Of a stretch of 64,000 nucleotides of DNA, positions 11,509 to 25,656 are shown piece by piece (positions within the stretch are counted from its first letter, which is position 1; every line of letters begins with the position of its first letter). Both the position numbers and the translations under genes were made by a program. A model generated the notes under the pieces. That model did no database searches and was not told the origin of the DNA. It was given only the letters and a program-made list of their open reading frames with translations. The stretch covers positions 637,483 through 701,482 of the forward strand of contig OY970216.1 of the NCBI GenBank assembly GCA_963713955.1, in the 5' to 3' direction. This stretch comes from an uncultured bacterium. GTDB lineage: Bacteria; Patescibacteriota; Minisyncoccia; UBA6257; GWB1-50-10.

Positions 11509-12414
11509 TCAGATGCTCAAATAGCGCCTCGTGGCTACGATACTGGAAACAATTCCGAGTCCCACCCCGAAGAGTACTTGATAAAGGAAGAGTGTCAGGA
11601 AGCCCGAGGAAAAATAAGAACCGAGATTCACTTCCGGTATGAAACTGTTCACATGGGGCGAGATGAACGTGATGACCGGTATCATAATGAGGAAGCTCAC
11701 GAGCGCCGAGATCAAGCCGTAGAGCGAACCCTCTACAACGTACGGACCCCTGATGAATTTGTTCGAAGCGCCGACGAGTCTCATGATCCCGATCTGCTCG
11801 CGGTTGGAAAAGATGGCGAGGCGTATGGTGTTGAACGTGACCGAGGCGGCGAGGAAGGCGAGGAAAATCGTCAGCACGAAACCGCCGGTCGTGAAATTGT
11901 CGACGATTGACACCAGCCGATTGATGACAACCTGGTTTTGGGCGTAGTTTACCTTATAGGTGATGTTCTGGAAATCGGGTTTTTCGAGGTACGCCGCGAT
12001 GGTGTCGTAATGGTGGATGTCTTTGGCCTTGATGTTGAGGGATGGCAGGAGTGGATTGGTGTCCAGCGTACTGAGCGTCTTCGTGATGGACTCGTCCCCC
12101 GCGTGGAGCGCTTTGAACGTAGCGAGCGCCTGTTCCTGTGAAACGTAGTCAACGTACTGGACCTCGTCCAGGCCTTCCAGCGATTTTTTGAGATTCAGGA
12201 TCGTATCTTCCGGAATATTGCTCTGGAAATAAACGGTGATGTCCACCTTGTTCTCGATGGTTTGCATGGCGCCTTTCGACACGACGTTGAAAAGGATGAG
12301 CCCTTCGAAAACGATGAGTGCCAAAATCATGATGGCGATCGTCGAAAACGAGAGCCACCCGTCCCGCAAAAAGTTCTGAATGCCGTATTTGAATATCCTG
12401 AAGAGGTTGATCAT
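11509..12414 (-). CDS. ftsX: Cell-division ABC transporter permease FtsX
   Basis: 301 aa, FtsX topology (N-terminal TM, periplasmic domain, three C-terminal TMs); immediately downstream of ftsE. Confidence 0.8.
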   Translation of the reverse strand: MINLFRIFKYGIQNFLRDGWLSFSTIAIMILALIVFEGLILFNVVSKGAMQTIENKVDITVYFQSNIPEDTILNLKKSLEGLDEVQYVDYVSQEQALATFKALHAGDESITKTLSTLDTNPLLPSLNIKAKDIHHYDTIAAYLEKPDFQNITYKVNYAQNQVVINRLVSIVDNFTTGGFVLTIFLAFLAASVTFNTIRLAIFSNREQIGIMRLVGASNKFIRGPYVVEGSLYGLISALVSFLIMIPVITFISPHVNSFIPEVNLGSYFSSGFLTLFLYQVLFGVGLGIVSSIVATRRYLSI

Positions 12415-12420
12415 ATGCTC

Positions 12421-13104
12421 CTAGTCTATTATAAACCTTCCGTGCGCTTCGTCCTTTATGACCTGCCCGTTTTCGAGGGTGATCACTCGCTCCCCGAGCG
12501 TATTCACGATCTCCTTGTCATGGGTCGCGAGAATCACGACGCTCCCCAGTTCGTTTATCTTCTTTAAAAGCTTTATCACTTCCCACGTGTTGAAAGGGTC
12601 GAGGTTGCCGGTCGGCTCATCCGCGATCAGGACGTCGGGCTGGTTTATCATGGCCCGCGCAATCGCGACTCGCTGTTTCTCGCCCCCCGAAAGTTCCGCC
12701 GGAAAGTTATGCACCTTGTCCTTGAGACCCACCATGTCGAGAACCTGTGGAACGAGTTCGTTTATTTCTTTTTGCGGTTTCCCCTCCACCTCGAGGGCAA
12801 AGGCAACGTTCTCGAACGCCGTTTTCTTGGGTAAGAGCCGAAAATCCTGGAATATGACGCCGATGTGCCTTCGGAACTCCGGCATCTCCCGCGGTTTCAA
12901 TTTCTCAACCTCGTAAGAGCCGAAAAAAATCTGCCCCTTCGTGGGCTTTTCCTCCCCGATCAAGAGCTTCACGACGGTTGACTTGCCTGCCCCCGATCTC
13001 CCAACGAGCGACACGAGCTCGTTGGGCTGTATCTTGAAACTCACTTTGTCGAGTGCGACGGTTCCGTGATTATAGGTTTTCGTTACATTTTGGAACGTTA
13101 TCAT
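12421..13104 (-). CDS. ftsE: Cell-division ATP-binding protein FtsE
   Basis: GRSGAGKST Walker [15 protein letters not shown] signature, [12 protein letters not shown] Walker B. Confidence 0.9.
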
Positions 13105-13178: not shown

Positions 13179-13907
13179 CTAGCTGCTTTTCATTTTCAAC
13201 AAATCGAGGTTCCCCTCCAGCACTTCCTCCACCTTCGTGATTTTAAGCCCCGTCCGGTGATCCTTCACCTGTTTGTACGGATGAAGAACGTAGGAGCGGA
13301 TCTCGTGTCCCCACTCCGGTTCCACCCTCACCCGCAAGTTTGTGATCTCCTTTTCGTGCTTTTCCTCCATGATTTTCGCGAGTTTCGATTTCAAAAGCAT
13401 CATGGCCTTTTCCCGGTTCTGCGATTGGGATCGCTCGGCCTGCGATGAAACGGCGATGCCCGTCGGGAGATGTACAATCCTGACGGCAGTCTCAACCTTG
13501 TTCACGTTTTGCCCTCCGGGCCCTGAAGATCTTGCAAACTCAATTTTCAAATCCTTCTCGGGGATGGCAATATCCTCCGCTCCCACCTTCCGGAAAGCGG
13601 GCAGAACTTCCACCAAGGCAAAAGAAGTATGCCGCAGTTTCTTGGCGTCAAAAGGCGAAATCCTCACGAGCCGGTGCACGCCCGCCTCATCTTTCAAAAT
13701 CTCATAGAGATTTTGTCCTGAGCTTGTCGAAGGACTACCTTTTATTTCGAGCGTACTGTCGTTCACGAAAGATTTTTTCCACCCTTTCCGCGTCGCGTAC
13801 TTTTCGTACATCGAAAGGAGGATACGCGCCCAATCCTTCGCATCTTCACCTCCCGCCCCCGGAAAAACGGACACATACACGATCCCCGTGTCGAAATGAG
13901 AGTCCAT
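13179..13907 (-). CDS. prfB: Class I peptide chain release factor, RF2-like but lacking N-terminal domain 1
   Basis: 242 aa starting MDSHFDTGIVYVSVFPGAGGEDAKDW (equivalent to E. coli RF2 residue ~125). Has SPFDAKKLRHTSF (SPF) and SSGPGGQNVNK (GGQ). In-frame TAA 21 nt upstream of the ATG; no CTT-TGA-C frameshift site. Confidence 0.75.
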   Translation of the reverse strand: MDSHFDTGIVYVSVFPGAGGEDAKDWARILLSMYEKYATRKGWKKSFVNDSTLEIKGSPSTSSGQNLYEILKDEAGVHRLVRISPFDAKKLRHTSFALVEVLPAFRKVGAEDIAIPEKDLKIEFARSSGPGGQNVNKVETAVRIVHLPTGIAVSSQAERSQSQNREKAMMLLKSKLAKIMEEKHEKEITNLRVRVEPEWGHEIRSYVLHPYKQVKDHRTGLKITKVEEVLEGNLDLLKMKSS

Positions 13908-13928
13908 ACCCTGTAGTACAACTTCGAA

Positions 13929-14216
13929 TTACTTTTTGCTTTCGTAGTAGACCTTTAATCTCTTGGCTAAAAACCTTGACCCGCCTGTAGTTTTCAAATA
14001 GTTCTCTCTCCTTCTGGCATCTTCCTCCATGAGACAACCCTCAAGGTAAATCAACTTCAGTGGCCTGCGATACCGAGTTGAAAAAACTCTCCCTTCCCGA
14101 TGTTCCTTGAGCCTCCGATTGATATTATCCGTGGAACCGATATATCTTTTCCCATCTTTCAAGCTTTCCAACACGTATGCCCAGAAGATGCCATTCGAAG
14201 TTGTCCTACGGGGCAT
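13929..14216 (-). CDS. GIY-YIG nuclease-domain protein (small, stand-alone)
   Basis: GIFWAYVLESLKDGKRYIGSTDNINRRLKEHREG is a canonical GIY-YIG module; 95 aa. Confidence 0.8.
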   Translation of the reverse strand: MPRRTTSNGIFWAYVLESLKDGKRYIGSTDNINRRLKEHREGRVFSTRYRRPLKLIYLEGCLMEEDARRRENYLKTTGGSRFLAKRLKVYYESKK

Positions 14217-14264
14217 GATTCATTAACTTTAGCAAAACGAGTTCTCCCCCGCAACGTGAGCGTT

Positions 14265-14780
14265 CTACGGATACGTTATTTTCCTGTTCTTCATTCTCAA
14301 AAATGGCGTTATTTTGTGGAGCTTCGCCGTTATCCGACTTGAAATGTGATATACCTTCCATCCTTTCTTTGTCATCGCATCAGCAATGAGCGATCGGTGA
14401 CACCGCCAGGGCACCGCCTCCGCGCACATGATGGCCGTGTTTTTCTTTTGTGCGATCGCCTGGAGTTTTTTCAATCCCTCTTCGAACTTGGATGTTTGCA
14501 TGTAATCGGCAAACCCGCGGAACGACAAGTTCTCCCAGCCGGTATTCTTCGAATCCTTCTTCGCGTGCCGGAGTCCCCCCAGCTCTTCCCCTAGCCACTT
14601 ATACCCTATGCCCTGCTTCCTGAGAAAAATTCCTAAATTTCCTCTCCCGAACTGCGGATTATGCCGCGACTTCGGAATCGTCCGGACATCCACCAGTTCT
14701 TTCACGCCGTGGGCTTGAAGCATCGAGACGAAATATTCAACCGTCCGCGTCGAATGCCCGATGCTAAAAAGCCTCTTCAT
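14265..14780 (-). CDS. DUF488 family protein
   Basis: AIMCAEAVPWRCHRSLIAD matches the DUF488 CAE..P..CHR signature. Confidence 0.6.
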   Translation of the reverse strand: MKRLFSIGHSTRTVEYFVSMLQAHGVKELVDVRTIPKSRHNPQFGRGNLGIFLRKQGIGYKWLGEELGGLRHAKKDSKNTGWENLSFRGFADYMQTSKFEEGLKKLQAIAQKKNTAIMCAEAVPWRCHRSLIADAMTKKGWKVYHISSRITAKLHKITPFLRMKNRKITYP

Positions 14781-15559
14781 GAGAAACTCACGACGAGCGG
14801 CAGATGATCCGAAACCTCGATCTCGGGAACAATAAAGAATTTTACCTCGATATCCGGCGAAACGAAGAAGTAGTCCGAAATGCGATCTTCCACTGCCTGA
14901 CCCCGATACTTTTCCCGGTTCAAATCGCTTCTCGTTGTCTCAATATGAAATTCACTTATGAGATTTCTCATGTCATGTCCCAAAAGAGCAATACTCTTGG
15001 TATCGGGATTTAGGTTGAAATCCCCGCACAATATCTTCGATCCTTCGATGCCGGAGAAAAACTCCTTCACTTTCCTGGACTGCTCCAATCTGGCCGTCGT
15101 GTCGTCCTTGGACCAAGCCGCAATGCCGTGCAAATTGCCAACAGCCAAAATCCGCTCCCCCGCCTTGAATTTACCGTACTGGAAAATGCCTACATCTTGG
15201 TTGTCTTCTTCGTGAAACTCCCGGAGAGCGCCGGCGGTGTAGAAACTTCCATTGTCGATTGGAATCAAGTTCTTTTTGTAGAATATAGCCGGTCCGTATT
15301 CTGCCTCTAAAGCCGCTCCGGCCGCGAAATCGTTAGCCTTGAATTCGGGAACGAAGTAATGATTGAAATCCGGCAGGATCGCCGTGAGTTCATTCAGGAG
15401 ATTGAAATGAGTACCGTCGTTCCCCACCCGCAAACACTCTTTAGAATCGTAGACTTCCTGAAAACAAAAAACATCCGTCTCGCCTGACACTTCTTTGAAA
15501 AATTTCGAGAGGGCATCGAATTCCCTTCCTCCCCAGACATTCAGAGAAACCAGTTGCAT
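14777..15559 (-). CDS. Endonuclease/exonuclease/phosphatase (EEP) family protein
   Basis: 260 aa; VFCFQEV.., ..ILCGDFNLNPD.., ..SDHLPLVVSF resemble EEP catalytic motifs. 4-nt overlap with the downstream gene. Confidence 0.65.
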   Translation of the reverse strand: MQLVSLNVWGGREFDALSKFFKEVSGETDVFCFQEVYDSKECLRVGNDGTHFNLLNELTAILPDFNHYFVPEFKANDFAAGAALEAEYGPAIFYKKNLIPIDNGSFYTAGALREFHEEDNQDVGIFQYGKFKAGERILAVGNLHGIAAWSKDDTTARLEQSRKVKEFFSGIEGSKILCGDFNLNPDTKSIALLGHDMRNLISEFHIETTRSDLNREKYRGQAVEDRISDYFFVSPDIEVKFFIVPEIEVSDHLPLVVSFS

Positions 15560-15583
15560 ACTTCCAATTCTAACATAAATCCC

Positions 15584-16270
15584 CTAAAGCCTGTCCGGAA
15601 AGTTGCTGAAAATGCCGTCGACGCCCATGGACTTGAATCGGGCGATTGCGGCTGCTCCGTCGACTGTCCAGACGAGGAGTTTCAATCCCTTCTCGTGAGC
15701 TTCCTTAATAAACTTCTCCTCGACGGTACTTGCCCGTGCCCCGATCCCCCATACCCGGAGATTGAGAGCCGTCGCAATGGACCGGCGAGAGTCTTCCCCC
15801 CACACCAATAGGATCCTTTTAAAATCCATGAGCCTGCCGGCCTCGGCAAGTTCATTCTCGGAAAAAGACGAAATGACGAAATCGTCGCTCTTCGCGCCGC
15901 CACTGAGACGCGAATTCAGGATGTCCGCTACTTCCCTGCTCAAGCCCTCGTCTTTTATCTCGATGTCAATGGGTACGCGGCCTGCGACCATGCCTAGAAC
16001 TTCGTCGAGCATCGGTATTCTCTCGCCCTGGCCGGCGTCGAGTGCTTGAATCTCGGCAAGCGTCAGGTCACTCACCCTTCCTTTCCCGTTCGTTGTCCGG
16101 TCAACCGTATCGTCGTGGATCACGACGACTTTTCCGTCCTTCGTTCCATGGACATCGAGTTCAATCACGTCGACGCCGAGCTCAAGCGCCCGCTTAAAAG
16201 AACGCAAGGTGTTTTCCGGTTCGTATCCCGCCGCCCCTCTATGACCTATACGTAAAAACATTTTTATCAT
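15584..16270 (-). CDS. Glycerophosphodiester phosphodiesterase (GDPD/UgpQ-like)
   Basis: Start at internal Met (MIKMFLRIGHRGAAGYEPENTLRSFKRALELGVDVIELDVHGTKDGKVVVIHD). The upstream 32 codons of the track ORF are a read-through of a hairpin repeat. Confidence 0.85.
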   Translation of the reverse strand: MIKMFLRIGHRGAAGYEPENTLRSFKRALELGVDVIELDVHGTKDGKVVVIHDDTVDRTTNGKGRVSDLTLAEIQALDAGQGERIPMLDEVLGMVAGRVPIDIEIKDEGLSREVADILNSRLSGGAKSDDFVISSFSENELAEAGRLMDFKRILLVWGEDSRRSIATALNLRVWGIGARASTVEEKFIKEAHEKGLKLLVWTVDGAAAIARFKSMGVDGIFSNFPDRL

Positions 16271-16272
16271 AC

Positions 16273-16301
16273 GGCTCCCGGTGCGAAGCCCCCCGGGAGC
16301 C
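16273..16301. repeat. GC hairpin repeat ggctcccggtgcgaagccccccgggagcc (family C hairpin module)
   Basis: Perfect 9-bp stem; the same module occurs at 21390-21420, 24375-24394 (partial) and 33153-33184 (inverted). Confidence 0.6.
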
Positions 16302-16316
16302 CAAAGTTGATTTCTA

Positions 16317-16769
16317 TTATCGCATTCCCCCGTATACCAAGAGAGAAACCACGACGAGAACGACATAGATGAACGCGGTGTGGAAATAGAACATGCTCCG
16401 GAAGGTCTCGCCGATCCGGTTTTCGTGCGTCGGCGGATGGGGAGAAGAAAAATCCTCCGGAAGATTTCCCCTTTCGAAGAACTCGCGGAGAGCCGCTGCC
16501 ACCCGGTCCCGCCGCGCCTTGTAATCCTGACGGAAGGATTTGCTGAGGCCGTCCAGAATCCAAAACATAACGATCGCTATCGATACCAGGAGCACGATAC
16601 CCTTGCTCTTGGTCTCGAACGACCATCCCATAGCCGCGACCCACAAAGTGATTGCCCAGCTTTTCACACGGTCGAGCGACCGGTCATATTTGTCCATCTG
16701 CCCCTGACAGAGTTCGAATTCCGATTCCACGATGTTTATCTTATCGTTCTCGTTTGCCATTTCTCTCAT
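16317..16769 (-). CDS. Hypothetical small membrane protein (two TM helices)
   Basis: 150 aa; architecture shared with 16796..17293 and 32487..32783. Confidence 0.45.
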   Translation of the reverse strand: MREMANENDKINIVESEFELCQGQMDKYDRSLDRVKSWAITLWVAAMGWSFETKSKGIVLLVSIAIVMFWILDGLSKSFRQDYKARRDRVAAALREFFERGNLPEDFSSPHPPTHENRIGETFRSMFYFHTAFIYVVLVVVSLLVYGGMR

Positions 16770-16795
16770 TCTATCATAACGCCATCTCCTATACC

Positions 16796-17293
16796 CTATC
16801 CCAAGTTTCCCGGTATAAACTTCTTGAAGACATCGCCGAGCTTTTCCACGATCCCCACTTTCACGTCTTCCTCATCCTTCAGCGGATGCTTCGAGATCGC
16901 CTCCCGCGGCGACGTATAGAGGATACCAATTGTGTTAATCATGAAATCCAGATATTTTTTCTGCTCGTCCGCCTTCGCGTGATTCACCTCTTTCTTCAAG
17001 AGATTAAGGTATCCGTCCATCGACCGCGCGACGAGCGACTTGAACGAATATTCCTCCAGATATTCCCGCGCCCCGGAGTACTGGGCATGAAAGAAAATTG
17101 CCGAGTAGACCAAAGGCAGCGCGACCGCGAATTCGAGCCACGTCGCCTTGCCGAAGCCGGCACTCGCCATCGGTCCGAAGAAAATGAGAATCGCGAGGAT
17201 GAAGAGCACCAGAATATTCACGATAAACCACTTCATCCACTTTGTCCTCGTCTCGTCGAGTTCCGCCTTCCGTTCCTCAAATAAATTTTCCAT
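16796..17293 (-). CDS. Hypothetical small membrane protein (paralog family MENxFEER...)
   Basis: Start taken at MENLFEERKAELDETRTKWMKWFIVNILVLFIL; paralogous to the 32487..32783 product (MENFEERVQRIEERNKK..). Confidence 0.5.
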   Translation of the reverse strand: MENLFEERKAELDETRTKWMKWFIVNILVLFILAILIFFGPMASAGFGKATWLEFAVALPLVYSAIFFHAQYSGAREYLEEYSFKSLVARSMDGYLNLLKKEVNHAKADEQKKYLDFMINTIGILYTSPREAISKHPLKDEEDVKVGIVEKLGDVFKKFIPGNLG

Positions 17294-17376
17294 ATTTTCC
17301 CCCTGCTTTTTCGACCTTTCGCGGCCGGGCACCGGGAAGCTCGCAGGTTCCCGGCGCCCCCAAATCAACAATCATT

Positions 17377-17925
17377 TTACTTCACCTCGAACGGCAATAC
17401 AGCAACTAAGACGTTTTCAATGTAAAGCTTGTACTCGTACTTTCCGGCTGATTGGGTTAAATTCTCACAACCCCCGCTGCCGCCGGCTTTGAGCTCCATC
17501 GGGAAAACCGTCTTCGGCTCACTATAACTCTTCGCCACTGTGTCGTATATCGCCGTTGCAATGCTCCCGGACGGAATCGTCTTCTTGAGTTGCATCATCG
17601 TGCAGAATTGATCCGCTCCACTCGTAAACGCGTTAGTTTCCACGGGGAAACCATCAGCACCGATTTTCTTGCCTACCGCCATCTTCCCCAGATAGATGCT
17701 GCTCAGATATTCGTCGAACTTCGCCTGATTTGGCTGCTCCGAGAGCGGTTCGTTGGCGGCCGCAGGTGCAGGCGTGGTCGCACTCGGAGTCGAAACTTCC
17801 GGCGTTTGGCCGATATTCTGCTCCGTAGACGGGCCTCCCTTGCTTCCCATGAAATAAGCCACCATCGCCACAATCACAACGACGAGGATTACAATGACTA
17901 TGTAGAGAACTTTCTTATTATTCAT
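17377..17925 (-). CDS. Hypothetical membrane-anchored extracytoplasmic protein
   Basis: N-terminal TM helix VLYIVIVILVVVIVAMVAYF, Pro/Thr/Ala linker, ~120-aa C-terminal domain. Confidence 0.5.
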   Translation of the reverse strand: MNNKKVLYIVIVILVVVIVAMVAYFMGSKGGPSTEQNIGQTPEVSTPSATTPAPAAANEPLSEQPNQAKFDEYLSSIYLGKMAVGKKIGADGFPVETNAFTSGADQFCTMMQLKKTIPSGSIATAIYDTVAKSYSEPKTVFPMELKAGGSGGCENLTQSAGKYEYKLYIENVLVAVLPFEVK

Positions 17926-17958
17926 ATTGACCCCCTCTTCAATCGGCCTTTTTGATAA

Positions 17959-18357
17959 TTATACCACTATTTTCCTCAATATTTTCCTGTCGTATTCGTT
18001 GGAAAGTTGACCCTCACTGTCGACCCACATGATGCCTTCTGCCTCAAGCGGTTTCGGCTCGCTGTTCCACTCTTTCACGAGATACACGAAAGATGAACAC
18101 CCGTCGTCATATAAAAACTCCCCGATGAAAATCGGGTTTTTCACTTTGACTCCCAGCTCTTCTTCCATTTCCCTCACAAGAGTCACCTCGGGAATTTCTC
18201 CTTTTTCAATCAATCCACCGGGGAACGTGACAAGCCCGGCGAAATGATCTTCCTGGATTCCGCGCTTCTCCGCCAGAAACTTCCCGTTCCTGCTCAAAAC
18301 CCCTACCGCGAATTTCTTTACTTCCAACACTTCGAATTTATTATAGCAAAGTCCCAC
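17959..18357 (-). CDS. NUDIX hydrolase
   Basis: Nudix box GGLIEKGEIPEVTLVREMEEELGV. Confidence 0.85.
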   Translation of the reverse strand: MGLCYNKFEVLEVKKFAVGVLSRNGKFLAEKRGIQEDHFAGLVTFPGGLIEKGEIPEVTLVREMEEELGVKVKNPIFIGEFLYDDGCSSFVYLVKEWNSEPKPLEAEGIMWVDSEGQLSNEYDRKILRKIVV

Positions 18358-18408
18358 CGATATCCGTTATTCGGTGGGACGCAACTTTGCACAAGATCAC
18401 CCCATAGG

Positions 18409-18585
18409 TTAAGGAGTTTCCTCTTTGGCCTTCGCCTCAGCCTCATCCAAGAGCTTATTCAGATAATCCCTGAGATCCCTTAGATTCTCGACCGTGTTCT
18501 CGCACGGTCTTTCGGCTTGGCCACGGATCCCCACGTCTTCTACCTCGAACCCCTTACCCCCATCCTGAGTTATAAGTATTCTCAT
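18409..18585 (-). CDS. Possible small protein (58 aa), below the ORF-track cutoff
   Basis: MRILITQDGGKGFEVEDVGIRGQAERPCENTVENLRDLRDYLNKLLDEAEAKAKEETP, with AAGGAG 7 nt upstream of the ATG. Confidence 0.3.
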   Translation of the reverse strand: MRILITQDGGKGFEVEDVGIRGQAERPCENTVENLRDLRDYLNKLLDEAEAKAKEETP

Positions 18586-18886
18586 CTCTTCTTTCTCCTT
18601 ATGCTTTTATCAACGGTTTTGTTTTACAGAAACCAGCGCTATCCTCGTGCTTTGGTTATAAGTCACACTCTCCCATTAGTCAACACGGTGACTGATAACT
18701 TCAAGCAACCTCCGCGTTGTAGCATTCCTCGCAGTACACAATCTCCTTCCTGTCGGGAGCGTATGTCGTCTCGAAGATGACTCACAATTTTGGCAAATTT
18801 TTTGCTCGGCGGCCATGTAAAGATTATACCCCTTATGAAAGAGCGAAGTCGTCGATGTCATCGGCGACTTGTGAAACAATGAAGAT

Positions 18887-19004
18887 CCCTTGGGAGCCGA
18901 TTCTCCTCTTACTCCGGCAACATTAAGAGTAAGGGAGATCGGCTTTCCGAACCAGGAAGGCGGTAGGGTGATCGGCTGTCCACCCTCCCAATTCCATCCA
19001 AGGG
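18887..19004. ncRNA. Candidate structured RNA / nested-palindrome element of unknown class inside a 550-nt non-coding gap
   Basis: Closing helix cccttgg...ccaaggg; internal 17-20-bp hairpin gccgattctcctcttactc/gagtaagggagatcggc; second hairpin agggtg..caccct. Confidence 0.3.
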
Positions 19005-19070
19005 TACAAAAAAGGCACATGTGAAAAGAACGTCTTTCCATAGTGCCATGATCGACAAAGCACTGTCAAC

Positions 19071-19129
19071 AAAAAGGGCTCTCGGTACTAAAAGTTCACC
19101 TGCCGATGAGGTAGGTCCCTCAGGAGCCC
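19071..19129 (-). terminator. Possible terminator downstream of tspO (GGGCUC..GAGCCC + U5)
   Basis: Minus-strand stem with a long loop followed by UUUUU. Confidence 0.3.
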
Positions 19130-19134
19130 AAATA

Positions 19135-19605
19135 TTAGTTCAAAAGCCAAATTGAAAGGTTCAAATAAGCCGCGAACGTCACCCAGAGGAGATACGGGAG
19201 GAGAGCCCACATCGCAGCGTGCGAGATTTTCCCGAACGCCATAATCGTTGCGACAATCGCGATCCAGAGAGCAATGACCGCGATGAAAGCGGCGAGAGGT
19301 GCATGGAGACCAAAGAAAATAACGGACCACAATATATTGAGAACGAGCTGGATTACGAAAACGCCGACGGCTTCTTTGACGCCCGCCGTTTTCCATCCCC
19401 TCCTCCAGACAAGGAAGAGTGCAATACCCATCAGAAAATATAAGAACGTCCAGACCGGACCAAAAAGCCACGCGGGCGGCATGAGCACGGGCTTCGTGAG
19501 AGAAGCATACCAGCCGGCAATGTTCGGCGTCGTGAAGATCGCACCGATTACCCCCGCGAGCTCGGAGATTCCCACATATACCACGAGCCCAATAATATTT
19601 TTCAT
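19135..19605 (-). CDS. tspO: TspO/MBR family tryptophan-rich sensory protein
   Basis: Start at MKNIIGL; PPAWLFGPVWTFLYFLMGIALFLVWRR and LLPYLLWVTFAAYLN are TspO hallmarks. Confidence 0.8.
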   Translation of the reverse strand: MKNIIGLVVYVGISELAGVIGAIFTTPNIAGWYASLTKPVLMPPAWLFGPVWTFLYFLMGIALFLVWRRGWKTAGVKEAVGVFVIQLVLNILWSVIFFGLHAPLAAFIAVIALWIAIVATIMAFGKISHAAMWALLPYLLWVTFAAYLNLSIWLLN

Positions 19606-19687
19606 CGTCTTATCCTTAATCATCAGTCTTATTATATCTAAAAAGTTGAAAGGATTCTTCGGACAAACCTGAAGAACTCTTTCATTT

Positions 19688-20029
19688 TCAAACTGCATGG
19701 GACTGATTATTTTCCTCTCCTAGCCCAAGTTTCCTATCATCCCTCAAGAGGAACATTGCCATCGGCCCAAATGTAGCTGCGAGTACAACCCCCATCACCA
19801 CACGTGACAGAACCTTCTCCATAGATCCGTAGGAGGACCTTTCCTCCTTTAGCGCCTTTACAAATCCCCTCATCACAACGAACGCGGCATAGATCGATCC
19901 GACAGACCAGTAGATCGCCAATCCATAAAGAAACGGATTCTTAGAGAGGAAATTAAGGTGAAAAGGAATCAGGGTGAAAACCACAGCCGCCAGCAGGGCC
20001 ACCAGGTTAAATTTTTTCCAGTGCACCAT
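19688..20029 (-). CDS. Hypothetical small membrane protein (113 aa)
   Basis: Start at [23 protein letters not shown]. The upstream part of the track ORF is antisense to ybjQ-like and rejected. Confidence 0.45.
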
Positions 20030-20215
20030 TTCTTGACTCCCTTCTTTTTTTGTTTGTGTGCTTGCAAAAATAATGACACGCCCTATACCATTTGTCAAAG
20101 CGCAAGCGCCAGCCCTCGGGGCACGCGAACGCGCCCCGAGGGCCCAAAACCAATCGACCCTCAAGGACTCAAGTGCTACAATAACGGTATGGACAAAAGG
20201 ACAATAGACCATTCC

Positions 20216-20536
20216 ATGGTCACAACGGCTTTTGAACTCCCCAACTACCGCATTGTGAAAAACCTCGGCGTCGCGCGGGGCATCGTCGTCCGGTCGCGTT
20301 CGATCATCGGATCGATTGGCGCCGGCCTCCAGACGATCGTCGGCGGCAACATAACGCTGTTCAGCAAGCTCTGTGAACGGACCCGCGAGGATTCCTTCGA
20401 TATCATGCTGGATCACGCAGCTGCGATGGGAGCGAACGCCGTGATCGGTTTCCGTTACGACGCCACGCAGATCGGCGGCGGCATCACCGAGGTCCTCGCC
20501 TACGGCACCGCCGTCCTCGTGGAACCAAAAGCGTAA
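20216..20536 (+). CDS. YbjQ/UPF0145 family protein
   Basis: [60 protein letters not shown] matches the YbjQ consensus (MIVTTT..GYEI..LG.V.G..V). Alternative start at 20189. Confidence 0.8.
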
Positions 20537-20544
20537 AAAAGGCT

Positions 20545-20584
20545 GGCCCTCGGGAGTCCTACGGATTCCCGAGGGCCTTTTATT
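20545..20584 (+). terminator. Rho-independent terminator after the ybjQ-like gene
   Basis: GGCCCUCGGGAGUCCUACGGAUUCCCGAGGGCC + UUUUAUU. Confidence 0.6.
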
Positions 20585-20639
20585 GATTTCCACACCCTGC
20601 ACCCCTGCCTCCTGCACGCGGAGACATGGCGCAGGCAGG

Positions 20640-21029
20640 TTATCCCCTCGTCACGACAACCCTCCTCTCCCGCGGCCCGTCGAACTCGATGAGCACCACT
20701 CGCTGCCACGTTCCCAAAACCAGCTTCCCGTTTTCGACCGGGAGCGTGAGCGACGTCCCGATGAGGGAGGAAAGAATGTGGTCCGGCACGTGCGCCGGAT
20801 TGTGCGGATGCCGGTAGTTCAGTTTCGGAATTAACTTCTCGAACGCATCCAGCATGTCGAGGTCCGTCCCCGGATCCAAATCAGCCGTCGTCAAAGCTGC
20901 CGTTGTGTGCGTGACAAAAACGTTCACCAAACCATCTTTCATTTTTTCCCCTCCTACGATTTCCTCCACCTGCCCCGTGATATCCACCACCTCCCGCTTC
21001 TTCTTCGTTTTGACGATCAATTCTTCCAT
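20640..21029 (-). CDS. YjbQ/UPF0047 family protein (secondary thiamine-phosphate synthase-like)
   Basis: Start at MEELIVKTKKK; VFVTHTTAALTTADLDPGTDLDMLDAFEKL..HNPAHVPDHILSSLIGTSLTLPVENGKLVLGTWQRVVLIEFDGPRERRVVV matches YjbQ. Confidence 0.8.
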   Translation of the reverse strand: MEELIVKTKKKREVVDITGQVEEIVGGEKMKDGLVNVFVTHTTAALTTADLDPGTDLDMLDAFEKLIPKLNYRHPHNPAHVPDHILSSLIGTSLTLPVENGKLVLGTWQRVVLIEFDGPRERRVVVTRG

Positions 21030-21033
21030 CTTT

Positions 21034-21309
21034 TTATTTCTTCTCGAGCTGGATGATCCAAAAGCCTTTTTCCTTGACGTCCTCGACGCTGTAGAACTGC
21101 AAGGGATTCCGGGCTGAGTGTTCAACTTTCTTGCATCCGAATTCCGCTGTGCGCCCCGTGTATTTTCCTGTCGCCGGATCGTACTCTTCAAAAACCAGCG
21201 TATCGCCGCTCTTCAAATCGAAATCCGCCAGTCTCAACTCGAACGTCCGGTCTCCCGAAACGAATTTCTCGAAGAACTCCGGCCAGCATTTTTTCTTTAT
21301 CGTCGCCAT
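21034..21309 (-). CDS. Hypothetical small protein (possibly ASCH/PUA-like)
   Basis: 91 aa beta-rich ORF; no firm motif. Confidence 0.4.
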   Translation of the reverse strand: MATIKKKCWPEFFEKFVSGDRTFELRLADFDLKSGDTLVFEEYDPATGKYTGRTAEFGCKKVEHSARNPLQFYSVEDVKEKGFWIIQLEKK

Positions 21310-21335
21310 GTTTTTATTCTATCACTCGCCGCCGA

Positions 21336-21420
21336 GTTATCCACAGATTTATGGAGAGCGGGAGGCCATATATTGGGAGATAACTCCGTTGCGGCTCCCG
21401 GTGCAAAGCCCCCGGGAGCC
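21336..21420. repeat. Intergenic repeat, family C copy 1 (gttatccacagatttatggagagcgggaggccatata..gataactccgttgcggctcccggtgc..cccgggagcc)
   Basis: Near-identical to 24298-24394; its 5' part recurs inverted at 31166-31196; the 3' hairpin recurs at 16273-16301 and 33153-33184. Confidence 0.65.
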
Positions 21421-21426
21421 CCAGAA

Positions 21427-22026
21427 TTAATTGAAATCAATCTTCTTGATTATTTTGTCCACCTGCCACCGCTTATTAACCCGGCAAAGATACATTTCCT
21501 TCGCGATGAACGAAAACCCAACGCCCTTCGTTCTTTCCCGAACCTCTAGGGCATCTCTGGGATTTTTCAAATACCCCATGCTGAAATGCGGGCTGAAACC
21601 GGTGGGACGGCCGTATTTCCCGAACTCCCGCAAGTCCTTTGCCGTCCAAGTTTTAAACGTGAGAAGCGGCATCGTCCCGGTTCTCAGCGGATGGATCCTT
21701 TCGAATACTTTCCTCTGCAAGGAAACCAGTGATCTCGTCCTTGCCACGGAAAATCCGACCGTCATTCCCCTCTTGACTTGAGAAGCGTGGAAATCGGCGA
21801 CGTTCACCGTGAAAGGTCTCAAATCCTCAGCTATCTTTTCGAGTTCTTCGGCTATTTTATTGATTCTCCCTCCGGCGGTATTGAGATGCCACAGGGAAAG
21901 ATGCGGAATCAGTTTAACGTTGTCGACCACGAACTCGGCCGGACACCCGGCGGTTTCTTTCCTCATCCTCCGGCCGATTTTCTCCCGCAACCCCGCCGGT
22001 GGCAATATGACCACATCCAGAAGCAT
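21427..22026 (-). CDS. 2H phosphoesterase superfamily protein (LigT-like RNA 2',3'-cyclic phosphodiesterase)
   Basis: Two H-x-[ST]-x motifs: PHLSLWHL and PHFSMGYL. Confidence 0.7.
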   Translation of the reverse strand: MLLDVVILPPAGLREKIGRRMRKETAGCPAEFVVDNVKLIPHLSLWHLNTAGGRINKIAEELEKIAEDLRPFTVNVADFHASQVKRGMTVGFSVARTRSLVSLQRKVFERIHPLRTGTMPLLTFKTWTAKDLREFGKYGRPTGFSPHFSMGYLKNPRDALEVRERTKGVGFSFIAKEMYLCRVNKRWQVDKIIKKIDFN

Positions 22027-22113
22027 ATTTTATCTTATCACAATCTCCCCGATTCCTTTCTCTTATTCGCTTATTCGCACGAATTAGAGATATGAGTGCG
22101 CGGGGGATTATTG

Positions 22114-22374
22114 TTATAAAAGCTCGATGATACGGCGGGCGGGCAATTTTTGAATCGATACCAACCGGTAGAACATCTGCAAGCTTCTTTGGTCCTTTTC
22201 GACCATATCCGCCGCCGACAGAATCCCGAGATGTTTGGATGTCGCCTTGAATGACAATTTGATCTCATGCGCGATTTCGCCGACGGGTGCTTCCTTGTTC
22301 TGCTTCAAATATTGCAGAATAGCCAACCGCCGCCGATTGGCCAACGCCTTCAATGTCCTCTCTAATTCCTTCAT
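22114..22374 (-). CDS. ArsR/SmtB family transcriptional regulator
   Basis: 86 aa; ANRRRLAILQYL..PVGEIAHEIKLSFKATSKHLGILSAADMV winged-helix signature. Confidence 0.8.
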   Translation of the reverse strand: MKELERTLKALANRRRLAILQYLKQNKEAPVGEIAHEIKLSFKATSKHLGILSAADMVEKDQRSLQMFYRLVSIQKLPARRIIELL

Positions 22375-22411
22375 CCCCTCTTACCCTTTTATTATATCAT
22401 CTTCCTCATCT

Positions 22412-22433
22412 AATTCTCTCATTCGCGCGAATT
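22412..22433. promoter_or_regulatory. Candidate ArsR operator (palindrome core ATTCGCGCGAAT); related half-palindrome at 22066-22087
   Basis: tctcattcgcgcgaattagaga between arsR and the divergent zinc-ribbon gene; ttattcgcacgaattagaga upstream of the LigT-like gene. Confidence 0.3.
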
Positions 22434-22545
22434 AGAGAACTTAAGAATGGACAAGGAGACCGCTAGCGTGGAAAAATGGACAAAAACCACGGCTCGTGGT
22501 AATACAAAACTAAATAAACAGCAATATTAAAAAGGAGAATAAGGT

Positions 22546-22797
22546 ATGAACTACTCAGCCAGAGGTCCGGAGCATATCCTCTATTGCGACGACTGCAACG
22601 AACCCCTCCGAATGATGGACCGCAGGGGGATCTACTGCCCCAAGTGCAAAGTAAGCGATTCCGGACGGAGTCCGAAATTCATTATGTCCTGCGTGGATTG
22701 CAATAAACCTCTGCAAGTCACAGAGGGCGGAGGGCTGTATTGCGAGCACTGCCTTTTCTATCCCAGCCTGCAGGATGTAGCACTCGAAGAGTGTTGA
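22546..22797 (+). CDS. Small protein with two tandem zinc-ribbon (CxxC..CxxC) modules
   Basis: YCDDCNEPL..GIYCPKCK and MSCVDCNKPL..GLYCEHC; AAAGGAG 8 nt upstream of the ATG; divergent from arsR. Confidence 0.55.
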   Translation: MNYSARGPEHILYCDDCNEPLRMMDRRGIYCPKCKVSDSGRSPKFIMSCVDCNKPLQVTEGGGLYCEHCLFYPSLQDVALEEC

Positions 22798-22820
22798 ACA
22801 TCCAGCCAGTATTCGCAACG

Positions 22821-22851
22821 AATACCCAACATCTGTTGGGTATTTTATTTT
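22821..22851 (+). terminator. Rho-independent terminator (possibly bidirectional) between the zinc-ribbon gene and pilin-like gene 1
   Basis: AAUACCCAACAUCUGUUGGGUAUU + UUAUUUU. Confidence 0.6.
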
Positions 22852-22978
22852 AGCTATTTCCTATCCCCTAAGCCCTAACTTCCACCTTCCCGCCGCCGCC
22901 CGCATAGGTTTTAGTTCTTGCTTTCAACAAAAATTTTTCGATTTCGGTTTTGGGCATTTTCTTATCCGCCTAAGTGCA

Positions 22979-24244
22979 CTACTTTTGAGCATTGTACATA
23001 GCCTGGATCTCAGCCGCAGACAATGCTCGATTATAGATGCGGACGTCGTCAAAAAGGCCATCCATCATCCATCCCGAAACACTTGAAATGCTGATGTTAT
23101 CCGAAGACAAAACATTCCCCGTCACCGAAGATATATTCACAGACCCTGATTGCTTTACTCCGTTCACGTAGACATATGCGAATCCCGCGGAACGATCGAA
23201 GACGATGGCGATATGAGCCCAGGTATTCTGAAGATCTGATGGCCGATACCCAGCGTCACATGCAACAAGTCCTGTCACTAAATTGGTACCATCATTGAAG
23301 TGGATGTTTATTCCTGTTGCACTATAGCTAGAATTGTCGATTGAATATCCAGGATGACCAGATTGATAAGAGTTACTGTTACCAATTGGGAAAAAGGCTC
23401 TTGGATAAACATAACTTCGGTGATAACCCCATCCCACGATCGTCAAACTTCCGGTTTGGGGATATAGGCTTGCATTGTTTCCAACGATCACATTATCATC
23501 CGTCCCATTGAAGTTCCCAGCGTATTGTCCCACCTTGCCTTGAGTATAGTAGGAACCATTGGTTATGGAACCAGACCACGTCCCCTGATTCCCATTCCCA
23601 CTCATATCATTAGGGTTTCCATCGAGGGGCCAGTAACCAACCAATCCATTCGTATTGAATAAGGGATTCAGGGAAAGGTTTGATCCATAAGCTATGACTC
23701 CAGGAATCATAGGAACCATAGGACTTCCTTCAATCTGAGACTTGTATTTCTGTGACTCAGGGAGACCGGTAAGTTCAAAGGAACCTCCCATGGTGTAGGT
23801 ATAGTAGAGGCCCGAACTCGTGGTGTTTATGGGATCAATAGGGAGCTTTGACAAAGGAGAACCTGATGAAATGAGGGTTAGATTGACGGGAATCCAGCCT
23901 GTTCCGTCTACCTTGGTTGAGGAAGAGCTTGGAACACAGTGATAACTCCAGCCTGTGGGAGGGGTAGGGAGACCCAAGGAGCCGCAGGTCGAAGAAGCGT
24001 TGTCGGGAACTGAGAGATAGAGGGTATTTGGAGTCCCTAAAGATTGACTCCACTCATCTGCCTGGAAGAGAGATAAAGCACTGTTTAAAGCTGCCAAGTC
24101 AGACAAACGAGTGGAATCTCTTCCCTGGGCCAGAAGCTGGGCAGGATTCAGGACGAGGACGACTGCGGTTGCGAGGACAGCAAGGATTGCTATCACAACC
24201 AGGAGCTCAATCAATGTAAAAGATTCTCTACTTCGCAGATTCAT
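22979..24244 (-). CDS. Prepilin-type N-terminal cleavage/methylation domain protein with C-terminal LamG (concanavalin A-like) domain, paralog 1
   Basis: Start at MNLRSRES|FTLIELLVVIAILAVLA (type IV pilin class III signal, Glu+5); C-terminal GLFDDVRIYNRALSAAEIQAMYNAQK (Laminin_G_3-type motif). The 51 upstream codons of the track ORF read through repeat C and are rejected. Confidence 0.8.
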   Translation of the reverse strand: MNLRSRESFTLIELLVVIAILAVLATAVVLVLNPAQLLAQGRDSTRLSDLAALNSALSLFQADEWSQSLGTPNTLYLSVPDNASSTCGSLGLPTPPTGWSYHCVPSSSSTKVDGTGWIPVNLTLISSGSPLSKLPIDPINTTSSGLYYTYTMGGSFELTGLPESQKYKSQIEGSPMVPMIPGVIAYGSNLSLNPLFNTNGLVGYWPLDGNPNDMSGNGNQGTWSGSITNGSYYTQGKVGQYAGNFNGTDDNVIVGNNASLYPQTGSLTIVGWGYHRSYVYPRAFFPIGNSNSYQSGHPGYSIDNSSYSATGINIHFNDGTNLVTGLVACDAGYRPSDLQNTWAHIAIVFDRSAGFAYVYVNGVKQSGSVNISSVTGNVLSSDNISISSVSGWMMDGLFDDVRIYNRALSAAEIQAMYNAQK

Positions 24245-24297
24245 TAGTTCAATTATAGCAGGAAAACGTCCTGCCTTTTTGTTCTGGGAGGAGAGTG

Positions 24298-24394
24298 TAG
24301 TTATCCACAGATTTATGGAGAGCGGGAAGCCATAATGAGAGCGGGAGGCCATATAATTGGGGGATAACTCCGTTGCGGCTCCCGGTGCGGAGTC
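24298..24394. repeat. Intergenic repeat, family C copy 2 (with an internal 20-nt duplication), just upstream of pilin-like gene 1
   Basis: agttatccacagatttatggagagcgggaagccataatgagagcgggaggccatataattgggggataactccgttgcggctcccggtgcggagtcc. Confidence 0.65.
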
Positions 24395-24463
24395 CAAATT
24401 TCTATTCCCTATCCCTCTAACCCGTCCGAGCCTTGAGGAGAAATCGAGTTAATGCATCTCTGT

Positions 24464-25255: not shown

Positions 25256-25340
25256 ATTTTCATCCGGGCTTTCGATAAAAATTTTTCCAGTTCGGTTTTT
25301 ACAGCTGGAGGAGACATTTGTTCTAACTTTACTACTCCTG

Positions 25341-25613: not shown

Positions 25614-25656
25614 ATTCAGTTTTTACCCCCTAACTTCCTCGACCTTTCAAAAACTA

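What the first reader, a model, noticed from the sequence alone, without database searches (positions are those of the whole stretch)
13179..14216. Release factor 2 homolog lacking domain 1, immediately preceded by a stand-alone GIY-YIG gene
The 242-aa prfB-like ORF starts at the residue equivalent to E. coli RF2 ~125. It retains SPF and GGQ. An in-frame stop lies 21 nt upstream, and only 21 nt separate it from the GIY-YIG gene stop. No N-terminal domain and no programmed +1 site (CTT TGA C) is present in any frame upstream. It could be a naturally domain-1-less RF (plausible if RF3 is absent). It could also be a gene whose 5' part was disrupted by insertion of the GIY-YIG/DUF488/EEP block.
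Basis: partly seen in the sequence, partly recalled or inferred. Interest (0 to 1): 0.6.

Follow-up and report, generated by a model that had tools for sequence, protein, structure and literature searches.

The report
Release factor 2 naturally lacking domain 1
This ultra-small (Patescibacteria/CPR) bacterium and a whole clade of its relatives carry an intact, strongly conserved stop-codon release factor RF2 that has lost its N-terminal RF3-interacting domain. This is an inherited lineage trait, not damage from the neighbouring GIY-YIG gene, and I found no description of it in the papers searched.

Summary
Window 13179-13907 (-) encodes a 242-aa RF2 that aligns to E. coli RF2 residues 122-355. 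It has SPF and GGQ. An in-frame TAA lies 21 nt upstream, and that TAA is the stop codon of a 95-aa GIY-YIG gene. No domain 1 and no CTT TGA C site lie upstream.

The truncation is natural and old. All 120 best database homologues (66-100% identity) start at the same position. They form one clade next to full-length Wolfebacteria-like RF2. The gene sits in the same tRNA-Thr(CGT)-prfB-ftsE-ftsX locus as the full-length relatives. Synonymous sites are saturated while dN is only 0.10-0.23.

UGA is used as a stop codon in this window, so RF2 activity is needed. RF1 has also lost or shrunk its domain 1 in related Kaiserbacteria-like lineages.

The disruption-by-insertion idea is rejected. Close relatives without the GIY-YIG block have the same N-terminus.

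Most likely this is the canonical UGA/UAA terminator, working without RF3-coupled recycling. I could not test whether prfC, a second prfB or a separate domain 1 exists elsewhere in the genome.

It is a new variant of a known kind, of moderate interest.

The parts
13179..13907 (-). Short prfB: 242-aa release factor 2 made of domains 2, 3 and 4 only
   Evidence: Aligns to E. coli RF2 residues 122-355. Matches TIGR00020 profile positions 112-346 of 353. The AF2 model (pLDDT 79, pTM 0.78) matches free RF2 structures 2ihr and 1gqe at TMq 0.73-0.75 over its whole length.
13650..13658 (-). SPF tripeptide (residues 84-86), the RF2-type stop-codon 'anticodon'
   Evidence: TCG CCT TTT on the minus strand. 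S84 and P85 are invariant in the 30-sequence alignment of the short clade.
13509..13517 (-). GGQ motif (residues 131-133), the peptidyl-tRNA hydrolysis loop
   Evidence: GGA GGG CAA on the minus strand. G131, G132 and Q133 are invariant in the short clade.
13908..13928 (-). 21-nt spacer between the GIY-YIG stop (TAA, in frame with prfB) and the prfB ATG
   Evidence: The sequence reads TAA TTC GAA GTT GTA CTA CAG GGT ATG on the minus strand. It has no alternative start codon, and no promoter-like or terminator-like site was found.
13929..14216 (-). Stand-alone 95-aa GIY-YIG nuclease-domain gene; an incidental neighbour specific to this genome
   Evidence: PF01541 at 9.2e-15. It is absent from this position in relatives L004, L007, L087 and L088. 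Two Logan contigs (L002, L003) end exactly at its stop codon, window 13932.
11509..13104 (-). ftsE (12421-13104) and ftsX (11509-12414), the conserved downstream partners of prfB
   Evidence: Pfam ABC_tran, and FtsX_ECD plus FtsX. The prfB-ftsE-ftsX order is kept next to both short and full-length CPR prfB.
37838..37909 (-). tRNA-Thr(CGT), the ancestral immediate upstream neighbour of prfB, here displaced by about 24 kb
   Evidence: ARAGORN and Rfam. In L007, L087 and L088 (short prfB) and in L096, L097 and L099 (full-length prfB) this tRNA ends 0-25 nt before the prfB start (0-5 nt in all but L007).
13929..37837 (.). Block of about 24 kb between tRNA-Thr and prfB that is absent from the closest relatives
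   Evidence: Synteny comparison with L088. Content includes LemA, DUF2207, metK, a DEAD-box helicase, LamG pilin-like genes, an MvaI/BcnI restriction enzyme with a methylase, an amidohydrolase, GDPD, EEP, DUF488 and GIY-YIG.

Best explanation
This is the organism's ordinary prfB gene in a derived, three-domain form.

Origin. In the ancestor of a Parcubacteria clade (Jorgensenbacteria-like, plus unnamed 'Patescibacteria/Minisyncoccia' genomes), the roughly 330 nt that encode RF2 domain 1 were deleted in place. The deletion lay between the upstream tRNA-Thr(CGT) gene and codon ~119. Where it existed, the +1 frameshift autoregulatory site was lost with it.

Inferred function. The remaining protein keeps the codon-recognition superdomain 2/4 with SPF and the GGQ domain 3. 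[quoted passage not shown] It would do so without the helical domain that contacts the L11 stalk and couples class-I factors to RF3. Its release from the ribosome must then be spontaneous, that is, RF3-independent.

Neighbours. The GIY-YIG, DUF488 and EEP genes are later, genome-specific neighbours and have nothing to do with the truncation.

Shown here: the architecture, its clade-wide conservation, positional orthology, purifying selection, and use of UGA as a stop codon.

Inferred, not shown: that this is the sole RF2, that it has release activity, and that it works independently of RF3.
For: - Homologue lengths. All 120 best homologues (66-100% identity) are 221-278 aa. They come from NCBI, JGI, ENA and Logan, on contigs up to 805 kb. 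The few forms of 248-278 aa owe their extra N-terminus to a translated tRNA gene (VAQLVEQ...GSNP), which is a gene-calling artefact. The start Met is an invariant alignment column.
- Different upstream neighbours, same start. The upstream neighbour is GIY-YIG here, an MBL-fold gene ending 3 nt before the start in L004, and tRNA-Thr in L007, L087 and L088.
- Single clade. In an NJ tree the short forms are one clade, sister to full-length P0128 and P0129. The P0128 cluster contains Wolfebacteria entries.
- Clean boundary. Every full-length relative found is at most 62-63% identical in the core. Every listed hit at 66% or above is short.
- Positional orthology. Full-length relatives L096, L097 and L099 have tRNA-Thr(CGT) ending 5-6 nt before the full-length prfB. 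prfB-ftsE-ftsX is shared by short and full-length CPR loci.
- Lost frameshift site. Full-length CPR relatives L008 and L009 carry the canonical CTT TGA C frameshift site. The short genes do not.
- Purifying selection. dN is 0.10-0.23 with synonymous sites saturated. Conserved residues include SPF, RHTSF, GGQ and the EW...IRSYVLHPY switch and domain-4 region.
- Fold. The model matches RF2 in its compact form over all 242 residues.
- RF2 is needed. Stop codons of 60 long ORFs in the window are TAA 27, TAG 18 and TGA 15. The TGA-terminated ORFs include dnaE, thrS and ftsX.
- No split gene seen. All 56 metagenome loci that matched CPR domain 1 have it fused to the core, apart from 3 cut by contig ends.
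- Parallel case in RF1. Kaiserbacteria, Paceibacterota and Minisyncoccia RF1 are 251-265 aa with no domain 1, or 307-317 aa with a reduced one. They sit in an rpmE-prfA-rpsB-tsf locus with only 129 nt between rpmE and prfA.
- Literature. PMC1586002 summarises Mora et al. 2003. Domain 1 is dispensable for codon recognition and hydrolysis but needed to act with RF3. That paper also notes that prfC is missing from small genomes.
Against: - Only 64 kb of a genome of about 805 kb could be read. A second, full-length prfB, a separately encoded domain 1, or prfC elsewhere cannot be excluded.
- In E. coli, domain-1 deletions are reported to slow growth (reviewer comment in PMC1586002). Loss may therefore need compensation that I did not identify.
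- The basic core does not date cleanly to the truncation. The short clade has a median net charge of +7, against -2.5 for the same region of full-length representatives. The FtsE control is neutral. However, one full-length relative, L008, also has +7.
- No biochemical data exist for any member.
- RF1 length in this particular genome is unknown.
Confidence: 0.8

Rival explanations
1. Pseudogene or remnant: the 5' third of prfB was destroyed when the GIY-YIG/DUF488/EEP block (or the larger 24-kb block) was inserted, and what remains is a decaying fragment.
For: A block of about 24 kb absent from the closest relatives does lie directly upstream. Its boundary is immediately 5' of the ATG. GIY-YIG genes are often mobile, and two Logan contigs break at its end.
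Against: Relatives without the block have the same start, MDSHFD.... At least 120 clusters share the architecture. dN is 0.10-0.23 with saturated dS, and all catalytic and decoding motifs are invariant. The ORF is intact with its own ATG.
Confidence: 0.02
2. Assembly or gene-calling artefact: the missing 5' segment exists but was lost by misassembly, or it is hidden behind an unrecognised frameshift.
For: Canonical prfB has a programmed +1 frameshift that gene callers mishandle. Metagenome assemblies can be chimeric.
Against: The canonical frameshift is at about codon 25 and would hide about 25 residues, not about 118. No domain-1-like coding potential and no CTTTGA exists in any upstream frame. 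An independent ENA assembly (L001) is 100% identical over 6 kb across the junction. Dozens of independent assemblies show the same start.
Confidence: 0.01
3. Split gene: domain 1 is encoded elsewhere as a separate small protein that associates with the short RF2 in trans, so the factor is functionally four-domain.
For: Domain 1 is a flexible, semi-autonomous helical module (PMC1586002). Only 8% of the genome was visible.
Against: No domain-1-like segment exists in the window. All 56 metagenome matches to CPR RF2 domain 1 are fused to the core, except 3 at contig ends. Graded reductions of domain 1 (N-termini of about 105, 90, 45 and 0 residues) occur among related RF2 representatives. Graded RF1 forms (about 310 and about 252 aa) occur too. 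This looks like erosion rather than fission.
Confidence: 0.05
4. Specialised paralogue: the short protein is a rescue or quality-control factor comparable to PrfH or ArfB, and a canonical full-length RF2 does normal termination.
For: PrfH and ArfB are known RF homologues that lack domain 1. The protein gives sub-threshold hits to both models.
Against: It scores far better as prfB (295.9 bits) than as PrfH (89, cutoff 166.65) or ArfB (59.9, cutoff 100). It keeps the RF2-specific SPF and RHTSF decoding elements. It has no RtcB neighbour. It occupies the orthologous tRNA-Thr-prfB-ftsE-ftsX slot and nests within canonical CPR RF2 in the tree.
Confidence: 0.08

Closest known systems
Canonical bacterial RF2 (prfB; TIGR00020), e.g. 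E. coli 1gqe and T. thermophilus 2ihr
   Same: 41-45% identity over domains 2-4. SPF, GGQ, the RHTSF decoding residues and the switch-loop Trp are present. The fold is the same (TMq 0.73-0.75). The locus is the same as in full-length CPR prfB.
   Different: It lacks the whole N-terminal helical domain 1 of about 118 residues. It lacks the +1 frameshift site. It scores below the curated family cutoff (295.9 against 370). The core is markedly basic (pI about 9.3).
Engineered domain-1 deletions of E. coli RF1/RF2 (Mora et al. 2003, as summarised in PMC1586002)
   Same: The architecture is the same: domains 2-4 only. Those constructs recognise stop codons and release peptide in vitro but no longer work with RF3.
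   Different: Those are laboratory constructs with a reported growth cost. This is a natural form fixed across a clade, under purifying selection, and probably the only UGA reader.
PrfH (RF-H), partner of RtcB2
   Same: It is a class-I RF homologue that naturally lacks domain 1 and keeps GGQ and a codon-recognition-like domain.
   Different: PrfH has a divergent 'anticodon' region and always sits next to rtcB. This protein has canonical SPF and no rtcB neighbour, and it reaches only 89 bits against a 166.65 cutoff.
ArfB (YaeJ) / ICT1
   Same: A GGQ domain that acts without domain 1.
   Different: ArfB also lacks the codon-recognition domain and has a basic C-terminal tail. This protein keeps domains 2/4 and reaches 59.9 bits against a cutoff of 100.
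Short RF1 of Kaiserbacteria, Paceibacterota and Minisyncoccia (251-265 aa; annotated 'peptide chain release factor-like protein')
   Same: A parallel loss of domain 1 from the other class-I factor in related Parcubacteria. It also sits in its conserved locus, rpmE-prfA-rpsB-tsf.
   Different: It is a different paralogue (a P-x-T type motif, here PLT, with an RF1-type C-terminus). It was not shown to co-occur with short RF2 in one genome.

Membership tests
RF2 (prfB) | SP(F/Y) tripeptide with the flanking RHTSF decoding residues | tested here: met
   RISPFDAKKLRHTSFA, residues 82-97. S84, P85, H93, T94 and S95 are invariant in the clade.
RF2 (prfB) | GGQ hydrolysis motif in domain 3 | tested here: met
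   GPGGQNVN, residues 129-136, invariant. Pfam RF-1 at 1.3e-39.
RF2 (prfB) | Fold of domains 2/4 and 3 | tested here: met
   AF2 model with pLDDT 79.4. Foldseek gives 2ihr at E=1.9e-22 (TMq 0.73) and 1gqe at TMq 0.75.
RF2 (prfB) | N-terminal helical domain 1 (the interface with RF3 and the L11 stalk) | tested here: not met
   The alignment starts at E. coli residue ~119-122. An in-frame stop lies 8 codons upstream. No domain 1 was found in the window.
RF2 (prfB) | Score above the curated TIGR00020 cutoff (370 bits) | tested here: not met
   295.9 bits, covering profile positions 112-346 only. The shortfall is explained by the missing N-terminus.
RF2 (prfB) | Orthology with bona fide prfB by position and by phylogeny | tested here: met
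   tRNA-Thr(CGT)-prfB-ftsE-ftsX is shared with full-length CPR prfB. The gene nests beside full-length P0128 and P0129 in the NJ tree.
RF2 (prfB) | Programmed +1 frameshift site CTT TGA C (common but not universal) | tested here: not met
   Absent here. Present in full-length relatives L008 and L009.
RF2 (prfB) | UGA/UAA-dependent peptide release on the ribosome | not testable with these tools
   Needs biochemistry. The indirect evidence is that UGA ends 15 of 60 long ORFs.
PrfH | TIGR03072 cutoff, a divergent anticodon loop, and an adjacent rtcB gene | tested here: not met
   89 bits against 166.65. Canonical SPF is present. The neighbours are GIY-YIG and ftsE.
ArfB | GGQ domain plus a C-terminal tail, with no codon-recognition domain (NF006718 cutoff 100) | tested here: not met
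   59.9 bits. The PCRF codon-recognition half is present.
GIY-YIG nuclease superfamily (the upstream gene) | PF01541 catalytic domain above its gathering score | tested here: met
   55.2 bits against 22.6, residues 12-80 of 95. It has no DNA-binding domain. The group I intron endonuclease model scores below cutoff (23.3 against 56.05).

The most novel reading that the evidence does not exclude
A large branch of Parcubacteria may terminate all translation with three-domain class-I release factors. RF2 has lost the RF3- and L11-stalk-interacting domain in the Jorgensenbacteria-like clade. RF1 has lost or shrunk it in Kaiserbacteria-like lineages, and graded intermediates exist elsewhere. If so, these bacteria run a termination cycle with no RF3-assisted recycling. 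They also lack prfB frameshift autoregulation, and their start codons abut a tRNA gene, so the mRNA would be nearly leaderless after tRNA processing. I found no description of this in the searchable literature.
Probability: 0.45. Interest if true: 0.65.

Novelty: new variant of a known kind. Interest (0 to 1): 0.55.

Why it matters
- **Textbook view.** Bacterial RF1 and RF2 are described as four-domain proteins. A comprehensive survey of release-factor diversity (PMC6514570) lists only PrfH and ArfB as forms lacking the N-terminal domain.
- **In vivo evidence.** A clade-wide, selected, domain-1-less canonical RF2, with a parallel case in RF1, would be natural in vivo evidence that domain 1 is an accessory module for RF3-coupled recycling. 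That idea has so far rested on E. coli deletion constructs.
- **Use in experiments.** It offers ready-made minimal release factors for structural and kinetic work. It also predicts co-variation with prfC and with features of the L11 stalk across Patescibacteria.
- **Annotation.** These essential genes fall below the curated prfB and prfA thresholds. They are therefore labelled 'release factor-like' or 'PCRF domain-containing', which could be misread as loss of RF2 or as stop-codon reassignment in genome surveys.

Tried and rejected
- **Other RF segments in the window.** tblastn with this ORF, and with E. coli RF2 from memory, found none.
- **Literature.** Eight searches combining release factor, prfB, prfC or RF3 with CPR, Patescibacteria or Parcubacteria found no description of truncated CPR release factors. 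The release-factor review PMC6514570 mentions CPR only in a figure legend.
- **First route to CPR RF1.** A search with the RF1-like C-terminus of the chimeric P0137 returned only gene fragments of 76-153 aa. One of them (L090) sits on an error-rich contig. I pieced its RF1 together across frameshifts and used the result as the next query.
- **RF1 in this genome.** I could not link any RF1 to this window's own genome. No hit had a longest contig of 804,691 bp.
- **Stand-alone domain 1.** The first alignment was too divergent for the scan. A three-sequence alignment worked and found only fused genes.
- **GIY-YIG copy number.** The exact-protein look-up found nothing on record. There is no second copy in the window.
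- **Promoter and terminator scan** around the junction gave nothing above shuffled expectation.
- **dN/dS.** The ratio could not be computed because dS is saturated. Only dN is reported.
- **Charge compensation.** The basic core is real. However, the full-length relative L008 shares it, so I do not claim that it evolved to compensate for the loss.
- **The 24-kb block as a mobile island.** No integrase was seen in the ORFs scanned. The block includes housekeeping genes (metK, a DEAD-box helicase), so it may be a rearrangement rather than an island.
Full report
**1. The observation**

The ORF at window 13179..13907 on the minus strand is 242 aa long, with an ATG start and a TAG stop.

- Pfam finds the RF-1 (GGQ) domain and only the C-terminal half of the PCRF domain, profile positions 98-194 of 194.
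- NCBIfam's prfB model TIGR00020 matches at profile positions 112-346 of 353. The score is 295.9 bits, below the curated 370. The prfA, PrfH and ArfB models score far lower.
- Against PDB sequences, residues 4-236 align to E. coli RF2 (1gqe) residues 122-355 and to the equivalent parts of B. subtilis and T. thermophilus RF2.
- SPF is residues 84-86 and GGQ is residues 131-133.
- On the minus strand the junction reads TAA TTC GAA GTT GTA CTA CAG GGT ATG. The in-frame stop 21 nt upstream is therefore the stop codon of the 95-aa GIY-YIG gene (13929-14216; PF01541). No alternative start codon lies in between.
- No CTTTGA occurs on that strand between 13000 and 16500. The three upstream frames contain only the GIY-YIG and DUF488 genes.
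- tblastn finds no other release-factor-like segment in the 64 kb.

**2. The truncation is a clade-wide trait, not local damage or an artefact**

A search of 5.8 billion proteins returned 120 best hits with 66-100% identity. All are 221-278 aa long. Where named, they come from Patescibacteria, Jorgensenbacteria, Parcubacteria or Minisyncoccia. Some sit on contigs of 0.6-0.8 Mb.

The handful of forms of 248-278 aa have N-terminal extensions that read VAQLVEQRFRKAWV.GSNP. That is a translated tRNA gene. ARAGORN finds tRNA-Thr(CGT) ending 0-25 nt before the true start in L007, L087 and L088.

In an alignment of 30 members, the initiator Met is an invariant column just before the first beta-strand of domain 2.

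The upstream neighbour differs between genomes:
- GIY-YIG in this window;
- a metallo-beta-lactamase-fold gene ending 3 nt before the start in a Jorgensenbacteria contig (L004);
- tRNA-Thr in the closest relatives.

An independent ENA assembly (L001) is 100% identical to the window over 6 kb spanning the junction.

**3. Where it came from**

An exhaustive HMMER search of cluster representatives at 50% identity shows that the nearest representatives are full-length RF2. P0128 is 347 aa and 63% identical. P0129 is 337 aa. The P0128 cluster includes Wolfebacteria entries.

In a neighbour-joining tree of the core region, all sampled short forms make one clade, sister to P0128 and P0129.

Several lines point to positional orthology:
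- In the GTDB species-genome scan, the reading frame stays open for at least 86 codons upstream in most of the other CPR loci and in the non-CPR loci. These include several Saccharibacteria, Azambacteria, another Parcubacteria genome and UBA6130. It closes within 0-26 codons in the window, L004 and L007.
- Both short and full-length CPR prfB are followed by ftsE-ftsX.
- In the Wolfebacteria-like full-length loci L096, L097 and L099, tRNA-Thr(CGT) ends 5-6 nt before the full-length prfB start.

The ancestral arrangement was therefore tRNA-Thr-prfB(full)-ftsE-ftsX. The short gene is that same gene after an in-place loss of about 118 codons.

Two full-length CPR relatives (L008, L009) still carry the classical frameshift cassette (...GRL, then CTT TGA C). 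The short clade has lost it.

Among related representatives there are also partly reduced domain-1 forms with about 45-55 residues (P0130, P0148, P0134, P0143, P0147). There are further zero-N-terminus forms in other branches (P0145, P0136). This suggests repeated erosion of the domain.

**4. Is the gene functional, and is it needed?**

Between the window and L087, L088 and L004, dN is 0.10, 0.15 and 0.23. Synonymous sites are saturated.

The invariant residues include SPF, RHTSF, GPGGQNVNKVETAVR and the EW..EIRSYVL.PYK switch and domain-4 segment.

An AlphaFold2 model (mean pLDDT 79.4, pTM 0.78) superposes over its whole length on free RF2. TMq is 0.73 for 2ihr and 0.75 for 1gqe. It also superposes on pre-accommodated ribosome-bound RF2.

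The genome uses all three stop codons. Among 60 long ORFs, TAA ends 27, TAG 18 and TGA 15. The TGA-terminated ORFs include dnaE, thrS and ftsX, which have the same lengths as their orthologues. UGA is therefore a stop codon here and an RF2 activity is required.

**5. Parallel loss in RF1**

I pieced together an RF1 from an error-rich contig (L090) and searched with it.
- Kaiserbacteria, Paceibacterota and Minisyncoccia RF1 come in two forms: 251-265 aa, starting about 25 residues before the ...ELRAGAGG strand, and 307-317 aa, with a shortened domain 1.
- Clean contigs show rpmE-prfA-rpsB-tsf with only 129 nt between rpmE and the 262-aa prfA (L092 and L093). The 310-aa form sits in the same slot (L094).
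- I could not show which RF1 form the window's own organism has.

**6. Mechanism**

Baranov et al. (PMC1586002) summarise Mora et al. 2003 and related work.
- Domain 1 is the least conserved RF domain.
- It is not needed for stop-codon recognition or hydrolysis.
- It is needed for the interplay with RF3.
- prfC is dispensable in E. coli and is missing from small genomes.

The simplest reading is that this clade's RF2 decodes UGA and UAA and releases the peptide as usual, then leaves the ribosome without help from RF3. That part is inference.

One possibly related feature is that the core of the short clade is basic.
- Median net charge is +7 and pI 9.4. The same region of 106 full-length representatives has a median of -2.5 and pI 6.3.
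- FtsE from the same genomes is near neutral.
- One full-length relative (L008) is also +7, so the shift may have come before the loss rather than compensating for it.

**7.

Compared with L087 and L088, the window keeps the order miaA, thrS, dnaE (39410-42583), rnhB (38758-39378), a weak RNase P RNA match (37994-38466) and tRNA-Thr (37838-37909). It also keeps prfB-ftsE-ftsX-sigma-DUF5667. About 24 kb lie between tRNA-Thr and prfB.

The block holds:
- LemA, DUF2207, metK and a DEAD-box helicase;
- several LamG pilin-like genes;
- an MvaI/BcnI restriction enzyme with a methylase;
- an amidohydrolase, TspO, NUDIX and GDPD;
- EEP, DUF488 and GIY-YIG.

An insertion or rearrangement did happen next to prfB. 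Its edge is outside the ORF, and the N-terminus is the same as in relatives that lack it. The GIY-YIG adjacency is specific to this genome. Two Logan contigs end exactly at its stop codon, which hints at repeat or population variation. I could not follow that up.

**8. Rivals**

- Pseudogene, and assembly artefact: contradicted by sections 2-4.
- Split gene with domain 1 supplied in trans: no support. All 56 metagenome matches to CPR domain 1 are fused to a core, except 3 at contig ends. That search was of limited sensitivity.
- Specialised PrfH- or ArfB-like paralogue: disfavoured by model scores, motifs, neighbours, phylogeny and positional orthology.
- None of the last two can be formally closed without the whole genome.

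**9. Novelty and score**

The protein works like RF2 and is the orthologue of prfB. It fails two formal membership features: domain 1 and the curated score cutoff. Public annotation reflects this, labelling these proteins 'peptide chain release factor-like' or 'PCRF domain-containing'.

I found no paper that describes natural domain-1-less RF2 or RF1 in CPR. The library is not exhaustive.

I rate it a new variant of a known kind, with interest 0.55. It would surprise a termination specialist moderately. It also makes the role of domain 1 and RF3 directly testable with natural proteins. The underlying principle, that domain 1 is dispensable for catalysis, was already known from E. coli constructs.

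Noticed in passing
L087 8055-8132; L088 7922-8003; L096, L097 and L099 about 2422-2503: In relatives, the prfB start codon (short or full-length) lies only 0-5 nt after the 3' end of tRNA-Thr(CGT). That leaves no room for a Shine-Dalgarno sequence outside the tRNA. The mRNA may be effectively leaderless after tRNA 3' processing.
   Followed up: partly
window 13929-37837: A block of about 24 kb separates tRNA-Thr from prfB here but not in relatives with 79-85% identical RF2. It mixes housekeeping genes (metK, a DEAD-box helicase) with variable ones. The variable genes include an MvaI/BcnI restriction enzyme at 26968-27765, a methylase at 27768-28577, LamG pilins and GIY-YIG. No integrase was seen in the ORFs scanned.
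   Followed up: partly
window 13932 (start of Logan contigs L002 and L003): Two independent Logan assemblies of the same strain break exactly at the GIY-YIG stop codon. This suggests the GIY-YIG gene is repeated or variable in the population. The gene is not called in the public gene tables.
   Followed up: partly
window 59545-61125 and 61101-63248 (-): rpoC appears as two ORFs that overlap by 25 nt. One is 715 aa with Rpb1 domains 1-3 and the other is 526 aa with domains 4-5. This is either a natural split or a frameshift.
   Followed up: no
window 37994-38466 (+): A full-length but weak match to bacterial RNase P RNA class A (40.2 bits against a gathering score of 100, E=6.5e-11). It is 84-86% conserved with L088, so it is probably a divergent CPR rnpB that the standard threshold misses.
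   Followed up: partly
P0137 (286 aa, ENA contig of 1572 bp): An apparent RF2/RF1 chimera. The N-terminal two thirds resemble the short-RF2 clade (SPF). The C-terminal domain 4 is RF1-type (GDRSEKIRTYN..DRVTDHR). It may be gene conversion between paralogues or an assembly chimera.
   Followed up: no
window 22979-24397, 30537-31157, 31252-32478, 46228-47436, 52962-54149: Five paralogous genes with a LamG (Laminin_G_3) domain. Four also carry an N-terminal type IV pilin methylation motif.
   Followed up: no
window 4372-6801 (-): An 809-aa fusion of glucose-6-phosphate dehydrogenase and 6-phosphogluconate dehydrogenase domains, as listed in the Pfam table for L001.
   Followed up: no
L092/L093 2501-3289; L094 2501-3433: RF1 of Kaiserbacteria-like CPR exists as a form of about 252-262 aa with no domain 1 and a form of about 310 aa with a shortened domain 1. 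Both sit in the rpmE-prfA-rpsB-tsf locus, and the decoding tripeptide reads PLT.
   Followed up: partly
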